Source of the DNA: Patescibacteria group bacterium
Lineage (GTDB): Bacteria > Patescibacteriota > Patescibacteriia > Magasanikbacterales > GWA2-37-8
NCBI GenBank assembly: GCA_041651015.1
Contig: JBAZKA010000003.1
Span: 42,572 to 106,571, forward strand
Length of the DNA: 64,000 nt
Reading direction: 5' to 3'
Shown here: piece by piece, positions 492-39,572 of the stretch
How positions within the stretch are numbered: the first letter of the stretch is position 1
Layout: every line of letters starts with the position of its first letter
Notes under the pieces: model-generated
What the model saw: the letters and a program-made list of their open reading frames with translations, nothing else
The model's database searches: none
Told to the model about the DNA's origin: nothing
Translations under genes and position numbers: made by a program

Positions 492-1595
492 TTATTCCCG
501 ACTTACACTCGCCACCACGCCTGCGGCCGCGAGACAAACAAGCATGGACGATCCACCGTGGCTTACGAATGGTAATGTCACTCCGGTTAACGGCAAAAGT
601 CCGACCATGGCCCCGATGTTCATACAAGCCTGCCAAAAAAACCAAATACTGACACCGCAAGCCAGCAAAAATCCGTAACGGTCCGGCGCTTCTTTGGCAA
701 TCTTGAGCCCGCGCCAAGCAATGAGTAAAATCAAACCGATTAAGGCGCACGAAATAACAAAACCCATTTCCTCGGAGATGATGGCAAAAATTGAATCCGC
801 TTCCACTTCGGGTAAGTACTGGTATTTTTGGCGCGAATGTCCGTAGCCTAGCCCGCCCCACCCGCCCGAACCAATGGCCAAATACGCTTGGCTCACATGA
901 TACCCAATGCCTTGCGGGTCAAGCTCGGGATGCAAAAATATTTTTAATCGGTCCGAACGATACGGCGCCGTGATAATGAGAATAATTACTGCGACTACGC
1001 CCGCGGCCGCGAGCGCGGCCAAAATCGGCTTTGATGTGCCGGCCACAAATAAAATTCCCACAACCATGCCTGCAATCACCACCAGTGTGCCGATGTCGGG
1101 CTGAACCGCGATGAGAAGCAAAGCTGGCGCGATCACGCCAAGCACGGGCAAGAGTCCGTTTTTCCAATCATGCAAATTTCTATCCGGGTCAGACAATAAA
1201 TCAGCCATGATAAATATAATCGCGAGTTTGGCCAATTCCGCCGGCTGAAAATGCATGAACCCTAAATTTATCCATGACGCCGCTCCTTTACCAAATGACG
1301 TGCCTATATGCGGAATAAAAACCATCACCAAAAGCGCCAGGCAGGCAATATAAAATACTCTACCGAGTTTACGCCACAAATCTGTATTAAAACGCGCGCA
1401 AATCAAAAACGCCAGCAAGCCCGGCAAGACGCCTTTGAGCAGTTGGGATTTTATAAAATAATATGTATCGCCGTGAACGCTGTAGCCGACCGGAGCGCTG
1501 GCCGAAGTCAAACAAAATAAACCAAAAGCCAACAATATTCCAATGCTGACCATATAAAATCTATCGGCTTTTTTGGCATTACCGGCAAGCGCCAT
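492..1595 (-). CDS. ftsW: SEDS-family peptidoglycan glycosyltransferase (FtsW/RodA/SpoVE)
   Basis: Polytopic membrane protein with the SEDS C-terminal signature '...GGWGGLGYGHSRQKYQYLPEVEADSIFAIISEEMGF'. Sits at the distal end of a dcw-like operon; ftsW rather than rodA is inferred from that context. Confidence 0.8.
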   Translation of the reverse strand: MALAGNAKKADRFYMVSIGILLAFGLFCLTSASAPVGYSVHGDTYYFIKSQLLKGVLPGLLAFLICARFNTDLWRKLGRVFYIACLALLVMVFIPHIGTSFGKGAASWINLGFMHFQPAELAKLAIIFIMADLLSDPDRNLHDWKNGLLPVLGVIAPALLLIAVQPDIGTLVVIAGMVVGILFVAGTSKPILAALAAAGVVAVIILIITAPYRSDRLKIFLHPELDPQGIGYHVSQAYLAIGSGGWGGLGYGHSRQKYQYLPEVEADSIFAIISEEMGFVISCALIGLILLIAWRGLKIAKEAPDRYGFLLACGVSIWFFWQACMNIGAMVGLLPLTGVTLPFVSHGGSSMLVCLAAAGVVASVSRE

Positions 1596-1597
1596 AT

Positions 1598-1951
1598 TTA
1601 CAAATTAATATCCACAATCAAATATACGGCTAAAGCCAAAAATAATTCCAGCACGGCCGTAAAAACCGTGAGGATGCGCGACAAAAGTTTGTCCGAGTTG
1701 AAAGTGTATATACCGGCGATAAAATTTATTATTACGAAAGCTAAGCCGACCACGGGCATAATCAAAATTCTCCACCATTCACCGACATAATCCACGCCAA
1801 AAATAATATTGTAATGCAAAAATAATGTACCGCCTTGCGTTCCCAAATTAAAAAAAATATACGGCCACATAAAAACTTGCGCCAAAGCCGATATGGCAAG
1901 CGGAACAAACACCCACGGGTCCTTAAAAAAAACTTTTAATAGGTAAAACAT
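1598..1951 (-). CDS. small integral membrane protein (117 aa), hypothetical
   Basis: Three or more hydrophobic helices. Tightly packed between ftsW (2-nt gap) and the Clp-like gene (3-nt gap). Confidence 0.45.
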   Translation of the reverse strand: MFYLLKVFFKDPWVFVPLAISALAQVFMWPYIFFNLGTQGGTLFLHYNIIFGVDYVGEWWRILIMPVVGLAFVIINFIAGIYTFNSDKLLSRILTVFTAVLELFLALAVYLIVDINL

Positions 1952-1954
1952 AAT

Positions 1955-4723
1955 TTAAGCGGTTATAATTTTTCCTCCCTCGCCGATAATAATTTTGTCT
2001 CTACGTTTGACCGAACCGGACAAAAGCAATTCGGCCAGTTTATTTTCCACGCGTTCTTGCAAAGCCCGTCGCATCGGACGCGCGCCAAAATCCGGATCAT
2101 AACCCACGTCAGCCAAGAATTCCAAAGCCGCATCTTCAATAATAAGTTCAATGCCTTTGGCCTCCAAATCTTTGGCCGTGCGCGCCAACATAAAGCCCGC
2201 GATTTGTTTGATGTTTTCCCGAGTTAGGGCTCGGAACAGCACAATACCGTCAAAACGATTTAAAAATTCGGGACGGAAATATTGTTTGAGCTCTCCATGC
2301 AACAACCGGTCTTTGATAGCATCAGACGACAAACCGGCGCGCAATTGCTCGGCCACATACGAAGTGCCGGCGTTTGAAGTGGCGATAATAATTATATTGG
2401 TGAAATCCACCACTCGTCCGGTGCTGTCGGTCAATCGCCCGTCATCCATCACTTGCAAAAATAAATTTAAAATATCCGGGTCGGCTTTTTCAATTTCATC
2501 CAACAGTAGAAGCGCGAATGGCTGACGGCGGATGGCTTCGGTCAAAATACCGGTTCCCTTTTCTCCGGGCGCACCAATCAGACGATACACACCGGACTTG
2601 TCCATGTATTCACTCATATCCAAACGGATCATTCGGTTCTCTCCGCCAAAATAAACTTCGGCAATGGTTTTAGCTAATTCTGTTTTGCCCACGCCGGTCG
2701 GGCCGAGAAATAAAAAGTTGGCAATCGGGCGGGTCTTGGAACGAATTTCCACGCGGGCTCGGCGCAAAGCGTTGGCCACCAAATCCACGGCTTCATCCTG
2801 GCCGACCACGCGTTTGTGCATTGCCTCTTCCAACAACATTAATTTACTTGATTCATCGGACGTCACGGTCGTGGCTGGAATGCCGGTTTTGTCTGCCACC
2901 ACCTGCGCCACCTCTTCACCCGAGACAAGGGAATCCGCGCCCTTTTTGTTGCGCGCATGCGAGCCGGCTTCACTGGCAATTTCTATGGCACTGCCCGGCA
3001 AACAATTTTCATGTAAAAATCTTTGCGCCAATTGCACGGATTTTTCCACCGCGTCATAAGCAAAAAATACTTGATTCTTGTGTTCAATCAAAGCGACTTT
3101 GGATTCCAAAACTTGGATGGCTGAGTTCTCGTCCATTTCGTGCACTTCCACTTTAGCAAAAACATTTCCCAACGCCGAATTGGAAATATAACGCGCAAAA
3201 TCTTCATCCGTACTCGTGGCAATGGTCAAAAACCGGCCGCCGCGTAAAAAATCCGCCAGTGTTCCGGCCACATCCAAACTACTACCTTCGCCGGCTGATA
3301 CGCCAATCAACTCGTGGACATTTGGAATATACAAAATCACATTTCGCGCGCGGGAAATTTCATTCATCATGGCAATCAAGCGTTCAATCGCGCCCGAAGC
3401 AGTCGTACCGGAAAGAAGTGAGGATACATTTAATTTAACCAAACGTTTGTCGCTCAAACGGCGAGGAACATCGTCTTCAATCATTTTGTCGGCCAATCCT
3501 TCCACAATACTGCGCTTGCCCACGCCATTAGAACCGGTGAGAAGCACGTTGGCCGCTCCGCCGTCCACCACGCGGAAAATTTCTTCAAATTCTTTTTCGC
3601 GCGCCACGCAATAATCAAATTGATTGAGTTGGGCCAAACGCGTCATGTCATCGCTAAAATTATTCAAATACGGCGTGGCTAAAGCGGTCATGGCTTTGTC
3701 CATGCCATATTTGGAGCGATGCGAACCCGCCCGCGCATGCTTCACATATTCGCGATATAATCTTTCACGGATACGCGCCCATTCCACCACGTTCATTAAT
3801 TTATTTTTTTCAATTTCCATGTCATACAATAATTCTTGCAGGGGCGGAGATTGTTTGATGCAGGCGACCAAAAGTTCGGTGACGCTCACGTATTCTTGAT
3901 GAGCGCTGTAGGCTTCTTCATACGCGCGAAATAAAATTTGCTGTATGTCAGGCGATAGAAGGGGCATGGAATGCGCGTTTTGCACTTGCGACGGCGCGTC
4001 AAAAAGCGAAACAATCCCCTCTTGCAATGATTTGGCCGGCAAACCAAGCCGGATAAAAATATTACCGATGCGATTAAACGAAAGTAAAGTGTAAAATAAA
4101 TGATTGGCTTCCACGTGCGCATAGTTTCTTTTGTCCGCGAAATTATAGGCTTCGGCCAGCACAGCCATGGCCTCATCGGTGAATGTCTTGTCAATTGCTA
4201 ATCGTTTACTGGAAGGAATTTTTTGGATTTGCTTCCAATCGGTTAGCGCCTCGGACTCTTCGGACGCGGACGTATGCTCATAATCAAATTTTTCCACCTC
4301 TAAATTTTTCTTGCGTTCGGTAATTTTGCGATACCAAAAATAAAGCAAAAACAAGGCGCCGAGACAAAATAAAAATTTGGAATAATACGGCAAACCTAGA
4401 ATCGCTGTCAGCCACTGTTCGGGCAGAGAAATAAAAGCCTGATAGGCGCCGGCGCGATAAGCAAAAAATATTGCCCACACCCAGAAGTTGAGCCAGAGGA
4501 CAATAAAAGTAATCCGGCGAATTTTGTTTCCGATTCTTCGGCCATTCACCATGGCGATGTTGTATCGCGTCAGAGGATATGTCCAAGCCAGCCATTTACC
4601 GCGCATCCGCACGCCCATGGAACGCCCACGGCATTCTTTGCAGACGCCAAAACCGCGCAAACCCGTTCCTTTGCACGAAGGGCATGTCGCGACATTCATT
4701 GGCGGTAGTTGCTCAAACAGCAT
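1955..4723 (-). CDS. ClpA/ClpC-like double-AAA+ ATPase with N-terminal C4 zinc ribbon and 2 TM helices; D1 degenerate, D2 intact
   Basis: N-terminus 'CPSCKGTG...CKECRG' (CxxC-x10-CxxC), then hydrophobic helices (about residues 70-130), then Clp_N-like repeats. D1 Walker A is 'GSNGVGKRS' (the Thr after Lys is Arg). D1 Walker B is 'ILYIPNVHE' where Clp has 'ILFIDELH'. D2 is canonical: 'GPTGVGKT', 'LLLDEIEKA', 'ATSN', and arginine finger 'GARPMRR'. Confidence 0.8.
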   Translation of the reverse strand: MLFEQLPPMNVATCPSCKGTGLRGFGVCKECRGRSMGVRMRGKWLAWTYPLTRYNIAMVNGRRIGNKIRRITFIVLWLNFWVWAIFFAYRAGAYQAFISLPEQWLTAILGLPYYSKFLFCLGALFLLYFWYRKITERKKNLEVEKFDYEHTSASEESEALTDWKQIQKIPSSKRLAIDKTFTDEAMAVLAEAYNFADKRNYAHVEANHLFYTLLSFNRIGNIFIRLGLPAKSLQEGIVSLFDAPSQVQNAHSMPLLSPDIQQILFRAYEEAYSAHQEYVSVTELLVACIKQSPPLQELLYDMEIEKNKLMNVVEWARIRERLYREYVKHARAGSHRSKYGMDKAMTALATPYLNNFSDDMTRLAQLNQFDYCVAREKEFEEIFRVVDGGAANVLLTGSNGVGKRSIVEGLADKMIEDDVPRRLSDKRLVKLNVSSLLSGTTASGAIERLIAMMNEISRARNVILYIPNVHELIGVSAGEGSSLDVAGTLADFLRGGRFLTIATSTDEDFARYISNSALGNVFAKVEVHEMDENSAIQVLESKVALIEHKNQVFFAYDAVEKSVQLAQRFLHENCLPGSAIEIASEAGSHARNKKGADSLVSGEEVAQVVADKTGIPATTVTSDESSKLMLLEEAMHKRVVGQDEAVDLVANALRRARVEIRSKTRPIANFLFLGPTGVGKTELAKTIAEVYFGGENRMIRLDMSEYMDKSGVYRLIGAPGEKGTGILTEAIRRQPFALLLLDEIEKADPDILNLFLQVMDDGRLTDSTGRVVDFTNIIIIATSNAGTSYVAEQLRAGLSSDAIKDRLLHGELKQYFRPEFLNRFDGIVLFRALTRENIKQIAGFMLARTAKDLEAKGIELIIEDAALEFLADVGYDPDFGARPMRRALQERVENKLAELLLSGSVKRRDKIIIGEGGKIITA

Positions 4724-4724
4724 A

Positions 4725-5084
4725 TTAAATAATTGTCTTGGAATGAATCATGCAGTACACAACCGCGACCGGTAGAGCCAGCCACACAAAAAACAATGCG
4801 ACGCAAACCAACATCCAGCCAACCAGCGCGATAGTCCGCGCTATCACTTGAATCAAACGCATCAGAAAACTGATAATTCGCCCTTGAATATCATACTGGC
4901 CAAACATGGGCACAAAAATATTCTTAAACCAAAGCCCGGGCGCGAGCGTGGCATTGCCGGACATAAATACTTGCGCGCACCAAACAATGGCGTGTTTGGC
5001 GCCAACCGTGTACCACCAAACCGGAAAATAAAATAAATCAAGAATGGCCAAGCCAAAAATTCTGGTAAATACAGTGATAAACAT
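4725..5084 (-). CDS. small integral membrane protein (119 aa), hypothetical
   Basis: Hydrophobic ORF. Its stop overlaps the start of the Clp-like gene (ATGA-type coupling). Confidence 0.45.
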   Translation of the reverse strand: MFITVFTRIFGLAILDLFYFPVWWYTVGAKHAIVWCAQVFMSGNATLAPGLWFKNIFVPMFGQYDIQGRIISFLMRLIQVIARTIALVGWMLVCVALFFVWLALPVAVVYCMIHSKTII

Positions 5085-5159
5085 ACGGGAGTATTATAAC
5101 ATAAAATGACAGAAAATAAAAAACCCATGGACATAGCCAAGGGTTTTCATATTTCATAA

Positions 5160-5588
5160 TTATTTTTTTGCCACCACTGACCCAACCGCGCTCAAATAGG
5201 TAATATTGTCCGCTCGGGTCAATCCGGCATTGGCAATTCGTTTCTCCAAAACAGGTAAGGAGTTGGCCGCCGCCATCTGCACATCCAAACCGCGAATTTC
5301 TTCATTGAGCGAAGCAACTTTATTTTGCAAATCACGCATTTCATAACCGCTGGTCGCGGCCGCGCTCACTTCGCGCACATACGCAAACACCAACAAGACT
5401 AGTATGCCCAGATAAATTCCGCGCGCCGCGCGCCCTTTTAACCATTCAGGGATGGCGCCACCGCGCGTTATTGTTTCCATATAACGGCGCAGGTAATTCA
5501 TCTGATATTTGATTTTTCGTTTTAGGGTCATAAAAAACGGTTGCAATATATTTGTCCCCTCTTCGCAAAAATTATTAAATTTTCTCAA
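5160..5588 (-). CDS. ftsL: FtsL-like septum formation initiator (single TM + coiled coil); true start probably at the internal Met near 5531
   Basis: Sits immediately downstream of rsmH as in dcw operons. Has a TM helix 'GIYLGILVLLVFAYV' followed by a coiled coil 'RDLQNKVASLNEEIRGLD'. The annotated start overlaps the rsmH 3' end by 14 nt. Confidence 0.5.
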   Translation of the reverse strand: MRKFNNFCEEGTNILQPFFMTLKRKIKYQMNYLRRYMETITRGGAIPEWLKGRAARGIYLGILVLLVFAYVREVSAAATSGYEMRDLQNKVASLNEEIRGLDVQMAAANSLPVLEKRIANAGLTRADNITYLSAVGSVVAKK

Positions 5589-6483
5589 TCACTCGCAATT
5601 TTGCGCTTCGCGAGCGTCGGTTTGCTTCTAATTCCGCCTCACCGGCCGTAATCGGTTTGGCTGTAATCAACTTGGCTTCACCGGACGACAGTGTCTGAAA
5701 ATAATGCTTTACAATTCTGTCCTCCAATGAATGAAAGGTGATCACCGCTAACCGCCCGTTGCCGGCCAAACTCTCGTAGGCTTGAGGCAATGCTTGTTTC
5801 AACACCTCAAGTTCGCGATTGACGGCAATGCGCAGGGCTTGAAAAACTTTGGTCGCCGGATGTATTCCGCCAATCCAAGGAATTTCTTTTTCAGTTTTCA
5901 ATTTACTCCGATAAACTTGTAAAATTATTTCCGCAAGCTCGCGCGTCGTCTTTATCTGATTAACTTTCCTTACAGCATCTATGGCTTCGGCAATTTCTTT
6001 TGATAAATCCTCCTCGCCAAATCGTCTGAAAATCTCCTCCAATTCTTTCACGTTCCATTCGTTTATAATTTTTTCCGCCGTCGTCTCCGAACCATTTACC
6101 GGCGTGTAGCGCATGTCCAAAGGTTCGTCACGTTCAAAACTAAACCCCCTGTTCCGTTCTTCAAATTGCGGAGATGACCAGCCCAAGTCCATTAAAATCG
6201 CGTCAGCCAATCCAAAATTATTGTCAACAATTATTTTTGATAAATTTTCAAAATTGTCGCGCGCGTAAACCACTTGCTCGCCGAATCTATATAAAAATCT
6301 TTTGGCGCGGAGCAATGATTCCGGGTCGGCGTCAATGCCGAGCAGTTTGCCTTTCGGGCCGATCGCTTCCAGAATCGCCTCGGCATGTCCCCCGTCGCCC
6401 AAGGTGCAGTCAATAACGCGACCGCCTTTTCTCAGGTTCATCGCTTCAATCGTTTCATGAATTAGGACCGGTTCGTGTCGCAT
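5575..6483 (-). CDS. rsmH: 16S rRNA (cytosine1402-N4)-methyltransferase RsmH/MraW
   Basis: 'HEPVLIHETIEAMNLRKGGRVIDCTLGDGGHAEAILE' and '...DLGWSSPQFE...' are the MraW signature. Follows mraZ. Confidence 0.9.
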   Translation of the reverse strand: MRHEPVLIHETIEAMNLRKGGRVIDCTLGDGGHAEAILEAIGPKGKLLGIDADPESLLRAKRFLYRFGEQVVYARDNFENLSKIIVDNNFGLADAILMDLGWSSPQFEERNRGFSFERDEPLDMRYTPVNGSETTAEKIINEWNVKELEEIFRRFGEEDLSKEIAEAIDAVRKVNQIKTTRELAEIILQVYRSKLKTEKEIPWIGGIHPATKVFQALRIAVNRELEVLKQALPQAYESLAGNGRLAVITFHSLEDRIVKHYFQTLSSGEAKLITAKPITAGEAELEANRRSRSAKLRVIEKI

Positions 6484-6504
6484 AACTTTATATCAATTTT
6501 CAAT

Positions 6505-6539
6505 ATTTCGTAATTTCGTAAATTTTCGTATTTCGTATC
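6505..6539. repeat. 4 tandem TTTCGTA(A) units in the mraZ-rsmH spacer
   Basis: 'atttcgtaatttcgtaaattttcgtatttcgtatc'. The same hexamer recurs in tandem at 13731-13768 and at 15706-15722. Confidence 0.5.
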
Positions 6540-6542
6540 TTT

Positions 6543-6974
6543 TTAGACTCCCAGCTCGGCCATTCTCTCGGCAATCTCTCCGCTTTCTTTTTCAGTTTTG
6601 GTTTTGAATTCGCCCCATTTGGTTTCATCCCAAATTTCCAAACGGTTATAAAGTCCGGCCACAATCACACTCTTTTTCAATCCGGCGAACTGGCGCAGAT
6701 ATTCAGGCAGGACCGCCCGGCCTTGTTTGTCCATTTCCACATCCATGGCGCCGGCAAGCATCAGGCGCGCGAACGCCCGGCTGTTAGCTTGGCTGATGGG
6801 CAAAGCCGCCAATTTCTCGGCCAGCTTTTCCCATTCTTTTTTGGTGTACAGAAACAAACAATTATCCAAACCTCTCGTCACCACCGCGCCTTTCACGAGT
6901 TCATTGCGAAACTTGACCGGTATGGCTAACCGGCCTTTTTCATCCAAATTGTGAGAGTATTCGCCGATGAACAT
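6543..6974 (-). CDS. mraZ: transcriptional regulator MraZ
   Basis: 'MFIGEYSHNLDEKGRLAIPVKFR' plus a second 'DKQGRAVLPEYLR' repeat (two MraZ/SpoVT-AbrB half-domains). Confidence 0.9.
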   Translation of the reverse strand: MFIGEYSHNLDEKGRLAIPVKFRNELVKGAVVTRGLDNCLFLYTKKEWEKLAEKLAALPISQANSRAFARLMLAGAMDVEMDKQGRAVLPEYLRQFAGLKKSVIVAGLYNRLEIWDETKWGEFKTKTEKESGEIAERMAELGV

Positions 6975-7910: not shown

Positions 7911-9272
7911 TTACACCTCCACCGCCTCCTCCGGATCAGCCACGGAAACTCGCACGCCCAATTCACTCTTAATTTTATCGGCTAAAGGCTGGCTTTGCTC
8001 GGGCTCGCCGTGATTCAAGACCACGCATTTGGGCGTTGAACCGTTGTTTTTAATCCAATTAAAAATTTTAATTCTATCCGCGTGCGCCGAGAGCACATCA
8101 ATAAACTCCACATGGCATTTGACTGCCACGTGTTCATTCAAGACGTCCACATGAGTCGCGCCATCCAAAATCTTCCTGCCCGGCGTGTGCATGGCTTGGA
8201 AACCGGTGAGAAATAAAGTATTGCGATTATCAGACAAATAGCGCAACGCGTGATACTGGATGCGTCCGCCGTTCATCATACCCGAACCGGCAATAATAAT
8301 TTTTTGGCCAATGACCGTATTGATGCGCTTGGAATCATCGCGCGAACGGGTCATTTTCAATCCGCCGAATTGGAACAAATCATCACCGGACCGGATATAC
8401 CTTTCCGCTTCTTCATCAAAATATTGCGTGTAGCGGTTAAACACGCCCGTTGCGTTGATGGCGAGCGGGCTGTCCAAAAAAATCGGAATGTTCGGCGGTA
8501 AAACTTGGTCGCGGTCAATCAAATCATTTAAATCATACAAAATTTCCTGGGTGCGTTCCACGGAAAAAGCCGGCATCATCAAAGTACCGCCCCGCTCAAG
8601 CGCCTCGGCCACAACTTTTTTAATGGCAGACTTGCGGTCAATACTCGTGTCGTGTTCGCGGTCGCCATAAGTGGACTCGCAAATCAGCAAATAAACATCT
8701 TTGGGCAAGGCGTCGGTATCGCGTAAAATCGGGACATTCACATTGCCCAGGTCGCCGGAAAAAACAACTTTTTTGCCGGCTAAATTTATTTCCAAAAATG
8801 CCGAGCCGAAAATATGACCGGCTTCATAAAATTTAAACCTGATGTTTGATGCCGGTAAATCAAAATCATCATAATAATCCACTTGGCGCATCATACCGAT
8901 AACCTTGGCCACATCATCTAAATTATACAGAGCCGGCCGGCCAAATTTCCGGGCGTGATATTCCATGATTTCGCATGCATCCTCCAAAATCAATCTGGCG
9001 ATTTCAATAGTCGGCGGGGTGGCATAAATTTGCCCGCTGAATCCGCGCTTTATGAGCAACGGCAAGCGTCCGACATGGTCCAAATGCGCGTGCGTGACAA
9101 ACACAGCCGTGAGAGCGCTGGCGTCAAAAGCAAATGGGTCGGCATTACGGTCTTCCACAAAGTCCCCTCCCTGAAACATCCCGCAATCAACCAAAATTTT
9201 AATATCTCCCTCTTCCAGCAAACTGCACGAACCGGTGACTTCTCCGGCCGCGCCAAAAAATGATAATTTCAT
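7911..9272 (-). CDS. metallo-beta-lactamase / beta-CASP family ribonuclease (RNase J/CPSF-like, COG1236-type)
   Basis: 'FGAAGEVTGSCSLLEEGDIKILVDCGMFQGG' and 'HAHLDHVGRLP' (the HxHxDH MBL motif). About 450 aa with a beta-CASP C-terminus. Confidence 0.7.
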   Translation of the reverse strand: MKLSFFGAAGEVTGSCSLLEEGDIKILVDCGMFQGGDFVEDRNADPFAFDASALTAVFVTHAHLDHVGRLPLLIKRGFSGQIYATPPTIEIARLILEDACEIMEYHARKFGRPALYNLDDVAKVIGMMRQVDYYDDFDLPASNIRFKFYEAGHIFGSAFLEINLAGKKVVFSGDLGNVNVPILRDTDALPKDVYLLICESTYGDREHDTSIDRKSAIKKVVAEALERGGTLMMPAFSVERTQEILYDLNDLIDRDQVLPPNIPIFLDSPLAINATGVFNRYTQYFDEEAERYIRSGDDLFQFGGLKMTRSRDDSKRINTVIGQKIIIAGSGMMNGGRIQYHALRYLSDNRNTLFLTGFQAMHTPGRKILDGATHVDVLNEHVAVKCHVEFIDVLSAHADRIKIFNWIKNNGSTPKCVVLNHGEPEQSQPLADKIKSELGVRVSVADPEEAVEV

Positions 9273-27773: not shown

Positions 27774-28469
27774 TTAATCAACATATGCCTCAATCTGCGC
27801 GACTTTATTTATTATTTTTAGTTTTTCAGCCAGTTCGGGAAATATCGTTTTTTGTCTTAATCCCATCCATAAATCATCCAATAATGACGACCCCGGGTAT
27901 GGATGCAAATTATAATTTTTGCCTTCAAGACCCAAACCATTAAGAAGAAAGGGCAATTCGTCAATAATGTAGGCGGCTAATCTATCCAATTTATCACGAC
28001 CAAAACCATCCACGCGTTTTTTAAAATTTTCTTTAATTATGTCTAAAATATATTGATGAAATTCAGTATCGTTTTCAAACTCTTCAACAATTACTGAAAT
28101 TGAATCTTTGTAAAATTGCGATTCTTTATAGTCCCGCCATTTTGCTATTTTTATCAAATGTCGTTTTTCTTTCGGCAAACTATTTTTTATTTCATTTATC
28201 ATAACCTCTATCTCCGTGCCTTTTCTTAAGGCCACACTCGCAGCCCTCTCGGCTGAATAACCATCAAACACTTCATAATTAATGGCATGAATTTCATCCG
28301 CAATCAATATCGCCACATCATCTTTGGTTTTGTCTAATGCCCATAAAATATATTTTTCAATATTTTCTTTTGAAAAGTATTTATTCCCCAAACTGATTCC
28401 GACAAAAAAATTGAATTGTCTTGCATCTATTTCGTCTTGCGTGCAGTTAAAATATTTTTCTATCCGCAT
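27774..28469 (-). CDS. tRNA-dependent cyclodipeptide synthase (CDPS) family protein
   Basis: 'FFVGISLGNKYFSKENIEKYILWAL' matches the AlbC-type catalytic-Ser pocket 'IGISAGNSYFSQKN..LLQWA' as recalled from memory. 'EEFENDTEF' resembles 'FEEDAEF'. 'AAYIIDELPF' matches the Y-x3-E catalytic pair in 'NYVLAEAPLF'. Length (231 aa) fits the family. Confidence 0.6.
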   Translation of the reverse strand: MRIEKYFNCTQDEIDARQFNFFVGISLGNKYFSKENIEKYILWALDKTKDDVAILIADEIHAINYEVFDGYSAERAASVALRKGTEIEVMINEIKNSLPKEKRHLIKIAKWRDYKESQFYKDSISVIVEEFENDTEFHQYILDIIKENFKKRVDGFGRDKLDRLAAYIIDELPFLLNGLGLEGKNYNLHPYPGSSLLDDLWMGLRQKTIFPELAEKLKIINKVAQIEAYVD

Positions 28470-34664: not shown

Positions 34665-35768
34665 TTACAGCTCATTTTTTAATTCTTCCAAAAGTTGTTT
34701 GGCTTTTTTACTTAATTTTTTCGGCACTAGTATTTTTATTTTAACATAATGGTCTCCCCTGCCCGAACGGCCCAATTGGGTAATACCGTGACCCCGAAGG
34801 CGGATAAGCTGGCCTGATTCCGTGCCCTCGGGCACGACCACGGTCAATTCACCATCCAAGGTCGGCACTTGAATTTTATCACCAAGCGCGGCTTGAGAAA
34901 AATTTATTTCCGATTCAGTGTAAACATCGAAATTTTCCCGATGAAAAACTTTTTGCGGTTTAACATGCGCTCGCACATATAAATCCCCGGACATACCGCC
35001 GTGAGGCGCGGCCTCGCCGTGGCCGGTCAAACGAATCGCTTGGGCGTCATCAATGCCAGCCGGAATCTTGACGTTCAAATCCACAGACTTGGATAAAATT
35101 CCGTCTCCGCCACAATGTTTACATTTGGCCGATGGTTTTTCGCCCCGCCCATGGCAATCCGGACAAGTAGCCACAGTTTGCATCACGCCAAGAAATGTTC
35201 GTTGTTGTTGAACCACTTGACCCTTGCCGTGACAAGTACTGCAGGTATCCATCTTACTGCCCGGTTCGCTACCCGAACCATGACAGACATCACATTTACT
35301 TTGTTTACGCAATGAAATATCTTTTTGTACGCCAAACGCCGCTTCGACAAAAGTAATTTCCACATCAACCTGAATATCAGACCCTCTTCGCCCGCCTCGG
35401 CCCGAGGCCGATCCGCCTCCACCAAAACCAAACACATCGCCAAATATGTCGCCGAAATCGAATCCGCCAAAATTGACATTGCCAAATCCCCCGCCTTGGC
35501 CGCTTCTGGCCGCGCGCATAAATTCTTCCCAGCTCGCTCCGCCAAATCCGCCTTGCTGATCAAAATCAGCGCCAAACTGATCGTACTTGGCGCGTTTCTC
35601 CGCATCGCCGACGACCTGAAAAGCCTCGTTTATTTCCTTAAACTTTTTTTCATCACCACCTGGTCTGTCCGGGTGATGTTGCATGGCCAATTTCTTGAAG
35701 GCCTTTTTTATTTCGTCTTGCGTGGCGGATTTATCCACGCCGAGCATTTTGTAGTAGTCTTTGGACAT
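34665..35768 (-). CDS. dnaJ: chaperone DnaJ
   Basis: J-domain 'YYKMLGV...HPDR', a G/F region, and four 'CxxCxGxG' zinc-finger repeats. Confidence 0.92.
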   Translation of the reverse strand: MSKDYYKMLGVDKSATQDEIKKAFKKLAMQHHPDRPGGDEKKFKEINEAFQVVGDAEKRAKYDQFGADFDQQGGFGGASWEEFMRAARSGQGGGFGNVNFGGFDFGDIFGDVFGFGGGGSASGRGGRRGSDIQVDVEITFVEAAFGVQKDISLRKQSKCDVCHGSGSEPGSKMDTCSTCHGKGQVVQQQRTFLGVMQTVATCPDCHGRGEKPSAKCKHCGGDGILSKSVDLNVKIPAGIDDAQAIRLTGHGEAAPHGGMSGDLYVRAHVKPQKVFHRENFDVYTESEINFSQAALGDKIQVPTLDGELTVVVPEGTESGQLIRLRGHGITQLGRSGRGDHYVKIKILVPKKLSKKAKQLLEELKNEL

Positions 35769-35774
35769 GAAAAA

Positions 35775-37727
35775 TTATTTTACTACTTCGCCCTCTATCG
35801 GACCTTCATCAGTCTTTGGCGGCTCCTGTTGAGTATTTTGTTGGCCTGCCTGCCCGCCCGCCGAGGTGGGTCCGCCTTTGGCGGATTCGGCCTGGTACAT
35901 TTTTGTGCCGACCACTTGCGCGGCTTTAGACAATTCCTCGCCGGCTTTCTTGATCGCTTCCACATCATCTTTATCTTTTACTTCTTTCACTTTGGCGAGC
36001 GCGTCATTCACCGCCTTTTTCTCGTCATCGGTGATTAGTGGGGCTTTTCCGCCCGAGGCGGATCCGCCTTGGGCGGATTTCTCTTCCACGTCTTTCATCA
36101 TTTTTTCCGTGGTGTAAATCATGGTGTCAGCCAAATTGCGCGCCTCAATCAATTCTTGCTTTTTCTTGTCTTCGTCCGCGTGCGCTTCAGCTTCCTTTTT
36201 CATCTTTTCCACTTCATCTTTGGACAAACCGGACGAAGCGGTAATTTTAATTGATTGTTCTTTGCCTGTGGCTTTGTCTTTGGCTTTGACACTCAAAATT
36301 CCGTTCGCGTCAATGTCAAACGACACTTCAATTTGCGGAATACCGCGCGGAGCCGGCGGAATTCCGTCCAACATAAATCGTCCGAGAGTTTTGTTGTCAG
36401 ACGCCATCGGACGTTCGCCTTGGAGCACATGAATCTCCACACCCGGCTGGTTATCGGCCGCGGTGGAAAATACTTGCGTTTTTGATGTTGGAATCGTGGT
36501 GTTGCGTTCAATCAAACGCGTCATCACTTGCCCCATAGTTTCAAGACCGAGCGAAAGTGGCGTCACGTCCAAAAGTAAAATATCTTTAACTTCACCTTTG
36601 AGCACACCGCCTTGCACGCCCGCGCCAATCGCCACTACTTCATCCGGATTCACGGTGATGTTCGGCTTCTTGCCGAAAAACTTTTCCACGGTGGAAAGTA
36701 CGAGTGGCATGCGGGTCATACCACCGACCAACACCACTTCATTTATATCTTTTACATCAAGTTTAGCATCAGTCAAAGCATTGCGCACCGGGCCCAAAGT
36801 TTTTTCTACCAGATCACCAACCAATTCTTCCAGTTTCGCGCGGGTCAATTTCATGACCAAATGTTTCGGTCCGGTCGCGTCAGACGTGATAAACGGCTGA
36901 TTGATCTCGGATTCCATGGCTGTGGATAACTCAATCTTGGCTTTTTCCGCCGCTTCTTTGATGCGTTGCAGAGCCAAATTGTCTTTGCCCAAATCAACAC
37001 CGTTCTCGCGCTTGAATTCATCAATAATCCAATTAATCAAAACCTGGTCAAAATCATCACCGCCCAAATGCGTATCACCGTTGGTGGACAGCACCTGCAC
37101 GTTATCCGGCGCGACTTCCAAAATGGAAATGTCAAAAGTTCCACCGCCCAAATCATAGACCGCGATTTTTTGTTCAGTCTTTTTGTCAAAACCATAAGCC
37201 AAAGCGGCCGCAGTTGGTTCGTTCACAATGCGGAGCACATTGAGGCCGGCAATCACGCCCGCGTCCTTAGTCGCCTGGCGTTGCGAATCATCAAAATACG
37301 CCGGCACGGTAATGACCGCGTCAGTAATTTTCTCGCCGATTCGTTCTTCGGCATCGGCTTTCATTTTTTGCAAAATCATAGCCGAAATTTCTTGCGGAGA
37401 ATATTCGCTTCCTTGCATCGCCACTTTCACGCCCTCGCCCGCTTGCACAATTTTGTACGGCATCAATTTCAAATCACGTTGGACTTCGGCGTCGTTAAAA
37501 TGACGGCCGATGAGGCGTTTGATGGAATACAAAGTGTTTTCCGGATTAGTGACAGCTTGGCGTTTAGCCAGTTGGCCGACCAGGCGTTCACCTGATTTTG
37601 AAATTGCCACGATTGACGGCGTCGTACGCGCCCCCTCTTTGTTTTCCAACACCTTTGGCTGACCGCCTTCAATGATGGCCATGCAGGAGTTGGTTGTACC
37701 CAGATCTATTCCTAATACTTTAGACAT
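35775..37727 (-). CDS. dnaK: chaperone DnaK (Hsp70)
   Basis: 'GIDLGTTNS', 'DLGGGTFD', and '[11 protein letters not shown]'. Confidence 0.95.
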
Positions 37728-37759
37728 ATATAATGTGTTAAATTATTATTTATTTTAAA

Positions 37760-38827
37760 TTAGTTACCCATCGCCTTCCTCAATTCCGGATCTAAATCGT
37801 CTTCCGCATACTGCTTTGCAATTTTGTCAATAACAATGAATGGCTGCGGACCTTCACAATAAGTGGAAATTTCTGACAACGATACTTCCGCCATTTTTGT
37901 GGGGGATGTTTTTCTTAATTTATTCAATAAATCTTCGCTTACATTATCTTCAGTTAAATATGTAAGTAAACCGTTATTGGCAAGCGCGGCTGCATCACCA
38001 GAGGCAAATAGGCGTTGAAAGATTATGGGTAAGTTATCTGTATCAAAATTATAAATATGAAATACATATGGGGCACAATAGGGGTTGTAAGGATTGTTGT
38101 CGGCGTCGCATTTTTCTTCTTCAAACCAGCCACGCACGGTGGTACTGCCGCTATATATTGGCCCAAAACAATCATCCATTGGGTTACCATGAGTCATTTC
38201 CCAATATTTGTTATCGCCGTTCGTGTTCTTGTCGCTATCTATTACGGGAAACTGCCTAATAGAAACGTAAAGACTGTCCCTGCCAGACATGGCCGATTGG
38301 ATATTTAAATTTATCGGATTATCCACGGTAGCCTTTTTTAGCCCCGATAACACGCTCTCTTGAGATATGAACAATGGATCCCAGCGCAATACAACTTTGC
38401 TAACATTTCCGCCATAAACTTTTATCGGCAATTTATCCAAATCAGACTGATCAATGCCTAAGACGTACGCATTGTCGTAACCGTCCCCCAATTCATTAAC
38501 CCATATTACTTTGATTGACGCATTACCAATATATGAAGAATCTCCGATTTTTTTCCATGTTCCGACAGATTGAAAGGCAGTGCTCGCATCATTTTGTTCA
38601 GGCTCTAATATGCCAGCGTCACTATTGCGAGCATCATACATATTGCTCTGATTCTCTTCAATATTTTCGTCAGCAACGTTGGATGAAGACCGATTAATGT
38701 CCTGTGATTTATTTTTGGCCAACAAAAACCCGAAATAAATCACAACTACTATCACCCCAACAAAAACTACCGCCGCGATAATATGCACGGTCAATAATTT
38801 TTTGTTGTTTTTTAGGATTTCGAACAT
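37760..38827 (-). CDS. hypothetical N-terminally anchored exported protein (355 aa), 32 bp upstream of dnaK
   Basis: TM 'LLTVHIIAAVVFVGVIVVVIYFGFLLA'. Cys-containing, Asn/Asp-rich ectodomain. No motif recognised. Confidence 0.45.
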   Translation of the reverse strand: MFEILKNNKKLLTVHIIAAVVFVGVIVVVIYFGFLLAKNKSQDINRSSSNVADENIEENQSNMYDARNSDAGILEPEQNDASTAFQSVGTWKKIGDSSYIGNASIKVIWVNELGDGYDNAYVLGIDQSDLDKLPIKVYGGNVSKVVLRWDPLFISQESVLSGLKKATVDNPINLNIQSAMSGRDSLYVSIRQFPVIDSDKNTNGDNKYWEMTHGNPMDDCFGPIYSGSTTVRGWFEEEKCDADNNPYNPYCAPYVFHIYNFDTDNLPIIFQRLFASGDAAALANNGLLTYLTEDNVSEDLLNKLRKTSPTKMAEVSLSEISTYCEGPQPFIVIDKIAKQYAEDDLDPELRKAMGN

Positions 38828-38831
38828 ATTT

Positions 38832-39044
38832 TCATTTTTTTAACTCCCACGGAGTATTGCAAACAATTTTGTATAAAATTTTCATTTTTTCTACCGACAA
38901 TTCAACCAACTTTTCCATTTCTTTTCTCGCCTGTGCGCTTTTTACCGAATGGCCGATTTGCGAATATTTTTCTTGCAAACGGCCTTCCGCGGCCAAAGCT
39001 TCACAGACATCATGCAACTTCGGTTTATTTTCGTTTTTGGACAT
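38832..39044 (-). CDS. hypothetical small protein (70 aa)
   Basis: ORF only. 4-nt gap to the downstream gene. Confidence 0.35.
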   Translation of the reverse strand: MSKNENKPKLHDVCEALAAEGRLQEKYSQIGHSVKSAQARKEMEKLVELSVEKMKILYKIVCNTPWELKK

Positions 39045-39061
39045 ATGACTAAAATAAATTA

Positions 39062-39532
39062 TTAAATTTTTTTCTTCATTAACATTCTAAAATCTTCAAA
39101 GCCCCACTTTTTATAAATATCGCGGGCAAAATTTGTATGCATGACATTCAAAGAAACATACTTGACGCGGCGCTGTTTGAAATATTTCATTGAACACAAA
39201 AAGAGCGCTTTGGCAATCCCGTTCTTCCGATACTTTTTTTCAACATACAAACTGCGGATAAATCCTTGGCGTGGCATAACTTTCACTCCGTCCTGTTTGC
39301 CGTCATCAATACGAAACTGGACATATCCGGCCAGCACGCCATCCAAAAGGGCGAGATAAAACAAATCCTTTTTATTATTCATCAATTTCTTTAACGCTTT
39401 TTCATCTCTCAACTTTAGAAAATCATAAAAATACTTTTTAACAAAAACTTTTTGACTACTACTAAAATCATTCTCAAAACCGGCGAGTGTCTTCGCGTCT
39501 TTTTTTGTGGCTTTTATGATTTTTACGATCAT
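39062..39532 (-). CDS. GNAT-family N-acetyltransferase
   Basis: 'QFRIDD...IRSLYVEKKYRKNGIAKALF' (the acetyl-CoA-binding motif A). The start is taken at the ATG MIVKIIKA, not the upstream TTG in the track ORF. Confidence 0.75.
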   Translation of the reverse strand: MIVKIIKATKKDAKTLAGFENDFSSSQKVFVKKYFYDFLKLRDEKALKKLMNNKKDLFYLALLDGVLAGYVQFRIDDGKQDGVKVMPRQGFIRSLYVEKKYRKNGIAKALFLCSMKYFKQRRVKYVSLNVMHTNFARDIYKKWGFEDFRMLMKKKI

Positions 39533-39543
39533 ATTATTATCTC

Positions 39544-39572
39544 TTGACAAAACCGACAATCTGTATTATAAT
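39544..39572 (+). promoter_or_regulatory. perfect-consensus sigma70 promoter TTGACA-17-TATAAT (plus strand, orphan)
   Basis: 'TTGACAaaaccgacaatctgtatTATAAT'. Both neighbouring genes are on the minus strand. Confidence 0.6.

What the first reader, a model, noticed from the sequence alone, without database searches (positions are those of the whole stretch)
3311..3535. Degenerate (likely ATPase-dead) D1 module in the Clp-like protein
D1 Walker A reads GSNGVGKRS: the Mg-coordinating Thr/Ser after the Lys is replaced by Arg. D1 Walker B reads ILYIPNVHE where Clp proteins have hhhhDE, so the catalytic Asp-Glu is replaced by Pro-Asn. D2 keeps GPTGVGKT, LLLDEIEK, the sensor ATSN and an arginine finger. 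This suggests a pseudo-ATPase D1 used as a scaffold or regulator, which is unusual for ClpA/C/B-class proteins.
Basis: seen in the sequence. Interest (0 to 1): 0.55.

Follow-up and report, generated by a model that had tools for sequence, protein, structure and literature searches.

The report
Membrane-anchored Clp with dead D1
This gene encodes an uncharacterised, membrane-anchored relative of the Clp/Hsp100 protein-unfolding machines, found across Patescibacteria (candidate phyla radiation), in which the first of the two ATPase rings has lost its catalytic residues but is still conserved, so it is probably a structural ring and the second ring does the work.

Summary
Window 3311-3535 (- strand) lies inside a 922-aa ORF (1955-4723). 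It encodes a D1 module whose Walker A reads GVGKRS (Thr->Arg) and whose Walker B reads ILYIPN (Asp-Glu->Pro-Asn). D1 has also lost both arginine fingers (RR->NV) and the pore-loop tyrosine (KYRG->TASG).

These losses hold across the family. Relatives occur in 216 species-level genomes (mostly Candidatus Magasanikbacteria) and in about 139 of the top 150 50%-identity clusters. The catalytic Glu is almost never present, while the P-loop glycines and Lys/Arg are kept. D1 is under purifying selection (dN/dS about 0.07-0.11).

So D1 is a conserved pseudo-ATPase ring that probably still binds nucleotide. D2 keeps every ATPase motif.

- an N-terminal CxxCxGxG zinc ribbon and a two-helix membrane anchor;
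- no M-domain and no ClpP-docking loop;
- a D2 pore loop without an aromatic residue (GYVG->GEKG);
- an invariably adjacent 119-aa membrane protein;
- a fixed place in the mraZ-rsmH-ftsL...mraY/ftsW division cluster.

No curated family or paper covers it. Automatic pipelines label it "ClpC/ClpA". It is a new variant of a known kind. What it does in the cell is inferred, not shown.

The parts
1955..4723 (-). 922-aa Clp/Hsp100-type double-AAA+ protein: Zn ribbon, membrane hairpin, Clp_N, degenerate D1, active D2
   Evidence: ORF. Pfam AAA_2 5.7e-53, ClpB_D2-small 9.4e-25, AAA_lid_9. NCBIfam ClpB 558.7 bits and ClpA 518.2 bits, both far below the cut-offs of 1232 and 993. AF2 pLDDT 81.6. Foldseek best matches are ClpC, ClpB and ClpC1.
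4631..4684 (-). N-terminal zinc ribbon CPSCKGTG...CKECRG (aa 14-31)
   Evidence: C14, C17, C28 and C31 are invariant in 106 sequences. Weak DnaJ_CXXCXGXG match, E=0.017. Beta hairpins in the AF2 model.
4331..4516 (-). Predicted two-helix membrane hairpin (aa ~70-89 and ~113-131)
   Evidence: Kyte-Doolittle segment 70-89, score 1.9. The flanks are basic (14 K/R against 2 D/E in aa 1-70; RKITERKK after helix 2). AF2 helices 53-90 and 113-136. 107 of 114 full-length family representatives have a hydrophobic segment in the first 260 aa. The topology (both ends cytoplasmic) is inferred.
3719..4189 (-). Clp_N-type N-domain (aa ~179-335)
   Evidence: Aligns to the ClpC N-domain. PF02861 is precomputed for all relatives. 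The match in a single-sequence scan is weak.
2930..3667 (-). D1 AAA+ module (aa ~353-598), degenerate; no M-domain insertion
   Evidence: Alignment to ClpC D1 skips ClpC residues 405-461, which form the M-domain. AAA fold in the AF2 model. dN/dS 0.07-0.11.
3509..3535 (-). D1 Walker A GSNGVGKRS (aa 397-405): Lys kept, Mg-binding Thr replaced by Arg
   Evidence: Family columns: K403 113/121; position 404 R60/K43/S7/T6.
3389..3409 (-). D1 pore-loop-1 GTTASGA (aa 439-445): tyrosine lost
   Evidence: Aligned to GTKYRGE of ClpC. Family: position 442 is P106/A15, with no aromatic residue.
3311..3337 (-). D1 'Walker B' ILYIPNVHE (aa 463-471): Asp-Glu replaced by Pro-Asn
   Evidence: Family: position 467 H72/N31/Q7/S5/P4/D2; position 468 N117/D2/G1/K1.
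3161..3169 (-). D1 arginine-finger positions G-N-V (aa 519-521) in place of E-R-R
   Evidence: Aligned AALERRFQ / SALGNVFA. Family columns.
1979..2851 (-). D2 AAA+ module (aa ~625-915) with a complete ATPase site
   Evidence: GPTGVGKT, LLLDEIEK, ATSN, FLNRFD and GARPMRR. K680, T681, D742, E743, N784, R823 and R882 are invariant. 83% mean identity.
2546..2575 (-). D2 pore-loop-1 GAPGEKGTGI (aa 717-726): 4 aa shorter than the canonical GAPPGYVGYEEGGQ and without an aromatic residue
   Evidence: Gapped alignment to ClpC. Family columns E88/Q15 and K108/Q9. Loop between H711-716 and H726-733 in the AF2 model.
2309..2368 (-). Site where ClpA/C/X carry the ClpP-docking IGF/IGL loop: here a short ClpB-type helix-turn-helix (GTSYVAEQLRAGLSSDAIKD)
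   Evidence: Gap-free alignment to T. thermophilus ClpB D2, whereas ClpC needs extra residues. AF2 helices 787-795 and 800-809.
4725..5084 (-). orf119: conserved 119-aa membrane protein. Its stop codon lies 1 nt before the Clp start codon. Obligate gene partner
   Evidence: Directly upstream in all loci with upstream DNA and in distant members, E 1e-26 to 1e-54 against profile A5. No Pfam, NCBIfam or PADLOC match. All relatives are named 'hypothetical protein'. AF2 pLDDT 94.5, two long helices, no PDB match. Spacer.
1598..1951 (-). orf117: small membrane protein between the Clp gene and ftsW (3-nt and 2-nt spacers); present only in the window's own subclade
   Evidence: cluster 13.
492..1595 (-). 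ftsW
   Evidence: TIGR02614 347.6 bits, cut-off 337.5.
5160..6974 (-). Upstream division-cluster genes: ftsL-like (5160-5501), rsmH (5575-6483), mraZ (6543-6974)
   Evidence: PF02381 MraZ and PF01795. FtsL_Actino E=9.7e-6, below cut-off. The order is conserved in the loci.

Best explanation
The ORF encodes a member of an undescribed Patescibacteria-wide branch of the class-I Clp/Hsp100 AAA+ family. Its layout is a cytoplasmic CxxCxGxG zinc ribbon, a two-helix membrane hairpin, a Clp_N domain, D1 and D2. It has no M-domain and no ClpP-docking loop.

Shown by sequence and comparison: D1 has lost the Mg-coordinating Thr, the Walker B Asp-Glu, both trans-acting arginine fingers and the pore-loop Tyr. 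It keeps the AAA+ fold and the GxxGxGK P-loop, and it is under purifying selection. D2 keeps every residue needed for ATP hydrolysis.

Inferred: D1 is a non-hydrolysing ring. It probably still binds nucleotide and serves as an assembly or spacer platform between the membrane-proximal N-domain and D2. The basic residue at position 404 and Asn468 may take the place of Mg2+ and the acidic pair. D2 is then the only motor.

Inferred from the missing loop: the protein works without ClpP, as a remodelling or extraction machine at the inner face of the membrane.

Inferred from gene linkage: it acts together with the 119-aa membrane protein encoded 1 nt upstream. In the Magasanikbacteria-type lineages it acts on the division and peptidoglycan-precursor machinery, because it sits in the order mraZ-rsmH-ftsL-orf119-clp-mraY/ftsW.

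The D2 pore loop also lacks an aromatic residue (GEKG). Substrate handling is therefore likely to differ from canonical Tyr-mediated threading. Grip may come from the aliphatic I726, or the motor may drive a conformational change in a bound partner rather than processive translocation.
For: - Register and substitutions.
- Family-wide conservation of the D1 losses in 121 close relatives.
- The same in 139 family-like 50%-identity cluster representatives: catalytic-Glu column E in 6/139, RR in 13/139, aromatic pore loop in 5/139, while G397/G400/G402 are 137-139/139 and K/R403 135/139.
- Purifying selection on D1: dN/dS 0.113, 0.068 and 0.082; 63% mean identity against 31% for the linker.
- D2 ATPase residues invariant.
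- No M-domain: ClpC 405-461 is skipped, and the match to the ClpA model is a single stretch.
- No ClpP loop: gap-free alignment to ClpB D2 and a helix-turn-helix in the model.
- Zinc ribbon: four invariant Cys.
- Membrane anchor.
- The orf119 partner is always adjacent: with a 1-nt spacer.
- Division-cluster synteny: mraZ-rsmH-ftsL-orf119-clp in nearly all of about 70 informative loci, with MraY next in 59/70.
- 216 species-level genomes carry a relative.
- Established knowledge, not tested here: the Walker A Thr/Ser and Walker B Asp hold Mg2+; the Walker B Glu activates water; Arg fingers act in trans; pore-loop-1 Tyr grips substrate; IGF/IGL loops dock ClpP; nucleotide binding to ClpA D1 supports hexamer assembly.
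Against: - No biochemistry exists. Loss of hydrolysis and retention of nucleotide binding are motif-based inferences.
- Some family branches keep GK[TS], an acidic pair (ED or DD) and RRF (P0218, P0222, P0224, P0231, P0245, P0248). Degeneracy is therefore graded, and D1 may be weakly active in some lineages.
- In the window's clade S/T405 and E471 are conserved and could in principle substitute.
- The link to the division cluster is not universal. P0176 sits after yidC, and P0183 has no division-cluster neighbours.
- The non-aromatic D2 pore loop weakens any simple 'D2 is a normal threading motor' statement.
- Whether these genomes have ClpP could not be checked. It is absent only from 1.5 Mb of flanking DNA.
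Confidence: 0.7

Rival explanations
1. D1 is still a working ATPase that uses non-canonical residues, for example Ser/Thr405 as the Mg ligand and Glu471 or another acidic residue as the catalytic base.
For: The P-loop Lys is kept (113/121). Position 405 is always S/T in the close clade, whereas canonical Clp proteins have Ala there. H470 and E471 are about 93% conserved. Some branches keep acidic pairs (ED, DD) and RRF.
Against: E471 and S/T405 are not conserved across the wider family. There is no significant compensatory link between loss of T/S at 404 and gain at 405 (Fisher p=0.087, not corrected for phylogeny). Both Arg fingers are absent in about 90% of the family. The Walker B Asp position is Pro in the window protein, which cannot coordinate Mg2+.
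Confidence: 0.1
2. D1 has lost nucleotide binding altogether and is a purely structural spacer, not a nucleotide-bound assembly ring.
For: The Mg ligands are gone. A bulky Arg or Lys at 404 could occlude the site. A few family members have also lost the P-loop Lys (GVGVST, GIGMSA, GVGTSA, GVGARA).
Against: The P-loop glycines are 98-100% conserved and Lys/Arg403 97% across 139 diverged clusters. The motif before the P-loop (canonical PVIGR, here CVAR, R375 invariant) is kept. Such conservation is hard to explain if the pocket is unused.
Confidence: 0.2
3. It is an ordinary ClpC/ClpA-type unfoldase that feeds ClpP, as the automatic annotations say, with 'AGL' (aa 796-798) acting as the IGL/IGF tripeptide.
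For: Source names are 'ATP-dependent Clp protease ATP-binding subunit ClpC/ClpA'. A G-L dipeptide sits at roughly the right place. The best PDB sequence and fold matches include ClpC.
Against: Scores are far below every curated equivalog cut-off. The segment aligns gap-free to ClpB, which does not bind ClpP, and is 8 residues shorter than in ClpC. It is modelled as a tight turn between two helices. The first tripeptide position is Ala or Asn, not hydrophobic. No ClpP gene lies in any of 90 held loci (weak evidence). Neither ring has the pore-loop Tyr.
Confidence: 0.08
4. The degenerate motifs are an artefact: a misaligned register, an assembly error, or a decaying pseudogene.
For: None found.
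Against: The reading frame is intact. The identical protein occurs on 2 contigs. The same substitutions are present in hundreds of independent assemblies. dN/dS is about 0.06 overall. The register is confirmed three ways.
Confidence: 0.01

Closest known systems
ClpA (E. coli type; NCBIfam TIGR02639)
   Same: Same linear layout from the N-domain onward: Clp_N, D1, D2, D2-small, without a coiled-coil M-domain. A single end-to-end match to the model.
   Different: Score 518 against a cut-off of 993. D1 is catalytically degenerate. No IGL ClpP-docking loop. No pore-loop Tyr in either ring. An extra zinc ribbon and membrane hairpin.
ClpB / Hsp104 disaggregases (TIGR03346)
   Same: D2 is closest to ClpB, including the short helix-turn-helix where ClpP-binding Clp proteins carry the IGF loop. 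Presumably independent of ClpP.
   Different: No M-domain, which is the DnaK-coupling coiled coil. D1 is dead. The D2 GYVG is replaced by GEKG. Membrane-anchored. Score 559 against a cut-off of 1232.
ClpC / ClpE (Firmicutes)
   Same: Best overall PDB sequence and fold matches. ClpE also starts with a Cys4 zinc-binding N-terminus (own knowledge).
   Different: ClpC and ClpE have an active D1, a short M-domain and a VGF/IGF ClpP loop, and they are soluble.
Plasmodium apicoplast-encoded ClpM
   Same: A Clp/Hsp100 with non-canonical D1 Walker motifs, a functional D2 and no ClpP-binding motif (bioRxiv 10.64898/2026.05.20.726455). This is the nearest precedent for a 'dead D1'.
   Different: Plastid-encoded eukaryotic lineage. 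No zinc ribbon, membrane hairpin or orf119 partner is reported. Presumably an independent origin (not tested).
NSF, PEX1/PEX6 and other type-II AAA+ proteins with one inactive ring (own knowledge; PEX1/6 review PMC9265785 listed)
   Same: The same principle: one ring hydrolyses ATP and the other is a nucleotide-binding or structural assembly ring.
   Different: A different AAA+ clade (classic AAA, not Hsp100/Clp). In NSF the dead ring is D2.
Skd3 / human CLPB
   Same: An Hsp100 relative in which only a D2-type ring provides the motor and D1 is functionally dispensed with. PDB hits 7ttr and 8zr0 to D2 only.
   Different: Skd3 replaced D1 by ankyrin repeats. Here the D1 fold is retained.
FtsH
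   Same: A membrane-anchored AAA+ ring at the cytoplasmic face of the membrane (own knowledge).
   Different: Single AAA ring fused to a protease, with an aromatic pore loop. No sequence relationship beyond the AAA+ fold.

Membership tests
Class-I Clp/Hsp100 (two AAA+ modules) | Clp_N, D1 (AAA, AAA_lid_9), D2 (AAA_2) and D2-small domain order | tested here: met
   Pfam AAA_2 5.7e-53, ClpB_D2-small 9.4e-25, AAA_lid_9 1.6e-7. Full-length alignments to ClpC, ClpB and ClpA. Foldseek E=1e-59 to 1e-43.
Class-I Clp/Hsp100 (two AAA+ modules) | Both modules carry canonical Walker A GxxxxGK[TS] and Walker B hhhhDE | tested here: not met
   D1 reads GVGKR and ILYIPN. D2 is canonical.
Class-I Clp/Hsp100 (two AAA+ modules) | Aromatic pore-loop-1 residue (KYRG in D1, GYVG in D2) | tested here: not met
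   D1 TASG. D2 GEKG.
ClpA (TIGR02639 / PRK11034) | Score at or above the curated equivalog cut-off | tested here: not met
   518.2 against 993.15, and 388.4 against 1350.
ClpA / ClpC / ClpE / ClpX (ClpP partners) | Extended surface loop with a hydrophobic IGF/IGL/VGF tripeptide for ClpP docking | tested here: not met
   ClpB-length segment aligned without gaps to ClpB. Tight turn in the model. The tripeptide position reads A/N-G-L/V.
ClpA / ClpC / ClpE / ClpX (ClpP partners) | Physical and functional interaction with ClpP | not testable with these tools
   Known only that no ClpP gene lies within about 10 kb in 90 loci.
ClpB (TIGR03346) | Score at or above the curated cut-off | tested here: not met
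   558.7 against 1232.1, matched in two stretches.
ClpB / ClpC | Coiled-coil M-domain inserted in the D1 small subdomain | tested here: not met
   Alignment jumps from ClpC 405 to 461 with no query residues. No long coiled coil between helices 532-594 in the model.
ClpV/TssH, ClpG, ClpK | Score at or above the curated cut-off | tested here: not met
   438.7 against 884.95, 436 against 1900, and 431.8 against 1900.
Known anti-phage defence systems (PADLOC) | Full-length match of the ATPase and of a partner protein to system models | tested here: not met
   Only partial D2 matches (PDC-M37B, DolB). orf119 and orf117 have no match.
Pseudo-ATPase ring of a tandem AAA+ protein (functional class, not a sequence family) | Catalytic residues lost while the fold is retained and under purifying selection | tested here: met
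Pseudo-ATPase ring of a tandem AAA+ protein (functional class, not a sequence family) | No ATP hydrolysis by that ring, measured | not testable with these tools
   Requires ATPase assays on ring-specific mutants.

The most novel reading that the evidence does not exclude
Together with its obligate 119-aa membrane partner, the protein forms a Patescibacteria-specific, ClpP-independent membrane machine that does not thread polypeptides in the canonical Tyr-pore-loop way. Instead a single active ring, mounted on a dead nucleotide-locked ring, remodels or extracts a component of the division or lipid-II machinery (FtsL, FtsW or MraY neighbourhood). In these reduced genomes it would be a previously unrecognised core divisome or cell-envelope factor. 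In the window, no ftsI-type gene lies between ftsL and the next cell-wall gene; orf119-clp sit there.
Probability: 0.2. Interest if true: 0.8.

Novelty: new variant of a known kind. Interest (0 to 1): 0.6.

Why it matters
Patescibacteria are a very large, almost uncultured part of bacterial diversity with minimal genomes, so genes they keep universally are likely to be important. This family is present in hundreds of species-level genomes and is currently mislabelled 'ClpC/ClpA protease subunit'.

It is a natural experiment on Hsp100 machines: D1 catalytically erased, no aromatic pore loop in either ring, no M-domain, no ClpP loop. Yet there is strong purifying selection, a membrane anchor and a dedicated partner. 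Working out what it does would address three questions:
- what a dead AAA+ ring contributes to a tandem machine;
- whether an Hsp100 motor can work without pore-loop tyrosines;
- how division and envelope assembly are organised in CPR bacteria.

At the least, annotation pipelines should stop inferring Clp proteolysis from this protein.

Tried and rejected
- Compensatory shift of the Mg-binding hydroxyl from position 404 to 405: only a non-significant trend (p=0.087). The association of a basic 404 with a non-acidic 467 gave p=0.055. Neither is corrected for phylogeny.
- Identity of orf119: no match in Pfam, NCBIfam or PADLOC. All 172 relatives are named 'hypothetical'. A confident AF2 helical hairpin had no PDB fold match, best E=1.9. 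The afdb50 library was unavailable.
- An ftsI gene hidden in the larger ftsL-orf119 gaps of some loci: in the two loci checked (L018, L060) the gaps hold opposite-strand ORFs, not an in-line PBP. These ORFs were not characterised further.
- Defence-system reading: only generic D2 hits.
- ClpP linkage: no ClpP-like ORF in 1.5 Mb of held DNA.
- Literature: eight full-text searches and two targeted reads found no description of this Patescibacterial family. Only the ClpM precedent turned up.
- Measuring pocket geometry in the AF2 model: coordinates are not exposed to the scripting sandbox.


Full report
**1. What is at the coordinates**

Window 3311-3535 on the minus strand translates to GSNGVGKRS...NVILYIPNVHE. 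This is residues 397-471 of a 922-aa ORF at 1955-4723. Pfam finds a strong D2 module (AAA_2 5.7e-53, ClpB_D2-small 9.4e-25), an AAA_lid_9 and only weak generic P-loop matches over D1.

NCBIfam places the protein nearest ClpB (558.7 bits) and ClpA (518.2 bits, one end-to-end stretch, aa 184-913 to model 4-732). Every score is far below its curated cut-off: 1232, 993, 885 for ClpV and 1900 for ClpG/ClpK. The protein is a class-I Clp/Hsp100 relative that belongs to none of the curated subfamilies.

**2. Is the register right?**

Yes. phmmer against PDB chains aligns D1 to B. subtilis and S. aureus ClpC without gaps through both motifs:

| Element | ClpC | Window protein | Change |
|---|---|---|---|
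| Walker A | GEPGVGKTAIAEGLA | GSNGVGKRSIVEGLA | Thr->Arg |
| Walker B | ILFIDELHTLVG | ILYIPNVHELIG | Asp-Glu->Pro-Asn |
| Pore loop | GTKYRGEFE | GTTASGAIE | Tyr lost |
| Arg fingers | AALERRFQ | SALGNVFA | both Arg lost |

The AlphaFold2 model (pLDDT 81.6) has an AAA+ fold for D1. The P-loop lies between strand 392-397 and helix 403-415, and ILYI lies in strand 462-466. Foldseek returns ClpC, ClpB and ClpC1 hexamer subunits.

**3. Do orthologues keep the substitutions?**

A search with aa 1-595 gave 1169 proteins at E<=1e-10. The top 120 are about 920-930 aa long, 50-90% identical, cover the whole N-terminal region, and are named from Candidatus Magasanikbacteria, Patescibacteria or Parcubacteria where a name exists. 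Counts in the 121-sequence alignment:

| Element | Counts |
|---|---|
| P-loop G397 / G400 / G402 | 120 / 121 / 121 |
| K403 | 113 (R in 7) |
| Position 404 (canonical Thr) | R60, K43, S7, T6 |
| Walker B Asp column (467) | H72, N31, Q7, S5, P4, D2 |
| Catalytic Glu column (468) | N117, never E |
| D1 pore loop (442) | P106, A15 |
| Arg-finger columns | G/S/K followed by N/D/G/T |

An exhaustive profile search with the D1 region against 1.84 billion cluster representatives gave 4249 hits at E<=1e-30. Of the top 150, 139 are family-like, meaning they lack the canonical Walker B Asp-Glu plus aromatic D1 pore loop; most also have a long N-extension. Among these 139:
- the catalytic Glu is present in 6;
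- RR fingers are present in 13;
- an aromatic D1 pore loop is present in 5;
- the P-loop glycines are kept in 136-139, and Lys/Arg403 in 135.

Degeneracy is graded. One branch (P0218, P0222, P0224, P0231, P0245, P0248) keeps GK[TS], an Glu-Asp or Asp-Asp pair and RRF. P0176, which has the zinc ribbon, still reads IDEIH. The window's clade is at the degenerate end.

**4. Is D1 decaying?**

No. Mean identity to the query by region:

| Region | Mean identity |
|---|---|
| D1 large domain | 0.63 |
| Clp_N | 0.56 |
| Linker | 0.31 |
| D2 large domain | 0.83 |

Nei-Gojobori dN/dS between the window gene and its two closest relatives (L088, L089), and between those two relatives, is 0.113, 0.068 and 0.082 for the D1 large domain. 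The whole gene gives about 0.06-0.08.

The pattern is: catalytic, trans-activating and substrate-gripping residues gone; fold and phosphate-binding loop preserved; purifying selection. This is what is expected for a pseudo-ATPase ring that still binds nucleotide or at least needs the pocket architecture.

Two ideas remain my inference. One is that the basic residue at 404 (R/K in 103/121) and Asn468 replace Mg2+ and the acidic pair to give a locked, non-hydrolysable site. The other is a compensatory shift of the hydroxyl to position 405, which is not statistically supported (p=0.087).

**5. What else is in the protein**

- **Zinc ribbon.** The N-terminus has CPSCKGTG...CKECRG. C14, C17, C28 and C31 are invariant in 106 sequences. 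There is a weak DnaJ CXXCXGXG match.
- **Membrane anchor.** Two hydrophobic helices follow (aa ~70-89 and ~113-131). They are flanked by basic residues and modelled as long helices. Because the AAA+ part must be cytoplasmic, a hairpin anchor with both ends inside is inferred. 107 of 114 full-length representatives have such a segment.
- **No M-domain.** The alignment skips ClpC residues 405-461.
- **No ClpP loop.** The segment where ClpA, ClpC and ClpX carry the ClpP-docking IGF/IGL loop aligns gap-free to T. thermophilus ClpB: SNAGTSYVAEQLRAGLSSDAIKD against SNLGSPLILEGLQKGWPYERIRD. It is modelled as helix-turn-helix. The automatic name 'Clp protease ATP-binding subunit' is therefore probably wrong.
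- **Active D2.** D2 has every ATPase element, all invariant: K680, T681, D742, E743, N784, R823, R882.
- **Non-canonical D2 pore loop.** Pore-loop-1 of D2 reads RLIGAPGEKGTGILTE against the canonical RL(I/V)GAPPGYVGYEEGGQLTE. It is four residues shorter and has no aromatic residue. In the close family the loop is conserved as G-(E/Q)-(K/Q)-G-(T/S)-G-(I/V/L/M). In the wider family it is hypervariable, and a Tyr often sits next to the LTE helix. Neither ring of the window protein has the tyrosine that Hsp100 proteins use to grip polypeptides. This is unexplained.

**6. Genomic context**

The window contig is a 186-kb ENA metagenome contig. The local gene order on the minus strand is mraZ, rsmH, ftsL-like, orf119, clp-like, orf117, ftsW. 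The spacers around the Clp gene and orf117 are 1, 3 and 2 nt.

A scan of one genome per GTDB species found 216 genomes with a relative, and 80 loci were fetched. In them:
- mraZ-rsmH-ftsL-orf119-clp is conserved in nearly every locus that has upstream DNA;
- the gene immediately downstream is MraY in 59 of 70 loci, and orf117-ftsW in the window's own subclade.

More distant members vary:
- P0125 has the same mraZ...mraY arrangement.
- P0127 sits between the ATP synthase operon and mraY.
- P0176 follows rnpA-yidD-yidC.
- P0183 has no division-cluster neighbours.

In every case a small ORF directly upstream is a member of the orf119 family, with E from 1e-26 to 1e-54 against the family profile.

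orf119 has no match in Pfam, NCBIfam or PADLOC, and all 172 relatives are 'hypothetical'. AF2 models it confidently (pLDDT 94.5) as two long antiparallel helices joined by the invariant loop N-x-F-x-P-M-[FY]-G-Q-x-D, and it has no PDB fold match.

So the conserved unit is the orf119-clp gene pair. The link to the division and cell-wall cluster is strong in the Magasanikbacteria-type lineages but not universal.

**7. Most likely mechanism**

Shown:
- The protein is a membrane-tethered double-AAA+ protein.
- D1 cannot use the canonical hydrolysis chemistry.
- D2 has a complete ATPase site.
- There is no M-domain and no ClpP loop.
- An obligate small membrane partner gene is adjacent.

Inferred:
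- D1 forms a static ring, probably nucleotide-bound. It supports hexamer assembly and positions the N-domains near the membrane. Established work on ClpA D1, NSF D2 and PEX1/6 D1 gives precedent (my own knowledge; PMC9265785 listed).
- D2 is the only motor.
- The machine acts at the inner face of the membrane together with orf119, on division or lipid-II-pathway membrane proteins in the lineages where it is embedded in that cluster.
- Without pore-loop tyrosines it may grip through I726 and K722, or it may remodel a bound partner rather than thread processively.

Confidence is about 0.85 that D1 is hydrolysis-dead, about 0.6 that it still binds nucleotide, about 0.8 that the protein is ClpP-independent, and about 0.4 for a division or envelope role.

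**8. Comparison with known systems**

It works like tandem AAA+ proteins with one inactive ring. Its closest precedent inside the Hsp100 family is the Plasmodium apicoplast-encoded ClpM, whose D1 lacks canonical Walker motifs and which lacks the ClpP motif. It shares its layout with ClpA, its D2 surface with ClpB, and an N-terminal Cys4 element with ClpE and ClpX (own knowledge). It fails the curated membership tests for all of these, and it fails the defining motif tests for a canonical class-I Hsp100. Eight literature searches and two targeted reads found no description of this Patescibacterial family.

**9. Verdict**

The finding is more interesting than stated, because the dead D1 is one feature of a large, conserved, unannotated family with several other departures from Hsp100 norms. 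It is a new variant of a known kind. Biological function remains inferred.

Noticed in passing
window 2546-2575 (-), aa 717-726 of the Clp-like protein: The pore-loop-1 of D2 is GAPGEKGTGI instead of GAPPGYVGYEEGGQ. It is four residues shorter and has no tyrosine. It is conserved as G-E/Q-K/Q-G in 121 relatives and hypervariable in the wider family. Neither ring has an aromatic pore loop.
   Followed up: partly
window 4725-5084 (-): orf119 is a 119-aa membrane protein with no known family. It is always encoded immediately upstream of this Clp family (1-nt spacer here). AF2 gives a very confident two-helix hairpin with an invariant loop NxFxPM[FY]GQxD and a YFPxWWY motif.
   Followed up: partly
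window 4631-4684 (-) and 4331-4516 (-): The Clp-like protein starts with a CxxCxGxG...CxxCxG zinc ribbon (four invariant Cys) followed by a predicted two-helix membrane hairpin. This N-terminal module is unusual for an Hsp100.
   Followed up: partly
window 492-6974 (-): The division cluster here runs mraZ-rsmH-ftsL-like-orf119-clp-orf117-ftsW. No ftsI or PBP gene and no mur genes lie between ftsL and ftsW. No transpeptidase domain was seen anywhere in the Pfam-annotated parts of the window.
   Followed up: partly
window 27774-28469 (-): A 231-aa ORF matches the cyclodipeptide synthase family (PF16715 CDPS) in the precomputed Pfam hits. This is an unexpected secondary-metabolite-type enzyme for a reduced Patescibacterial genome.
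   Followed up: no
window 34665-42040 (-): A heat-shock locus: hrcA, grpE, an Hsp20, then dnaK (35775-37727) and dnaJ (34665-35768). DnaK and DnaJ are present, but no canonical ClpB with an M-domain was seen in the window.
   Followed up: no
window 47630-49567 (-): A 645-aa protein combining PspC, LiaI-LiaF-TM and DUF2807 domains, preceded by a PadR regulator. This is a candidate envelope-stress module.
   Followed up: no
window 7911-9272 (-): A 453-aa metallo-beta-lactamase/beta-CASP/RMMBL protein (RNase J-like) with a weak Anti-Pycsar Apyc1 Pfam hit.
   Followed up: no
window 52180-53538 (-): A 452-aa protein with two tandem Lysine_decarbox/LOG-type (PF03641, LDcluster4) modules.
   Followed up: no
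L089 815-1171: In the Logan contig that carries the 88%-identical orthologue, the gene caller placed a 118-aa gene on the wrong strand. The + strand there encodes a clear orf119 homologue (FYFPVWWYTVGAKH...).
   Followed up: yes
loci L003-L082 record titles: Many species-representative MAGs that carry this Patescibacteria-type locus are titled 'uncultured Gammaproteobacteria bacterium', and one 'Candidatus Udaeobacter sp.'. These look like placeholder or wrong taxonomic labels in bulk MAG submissions.
   Followed up: no
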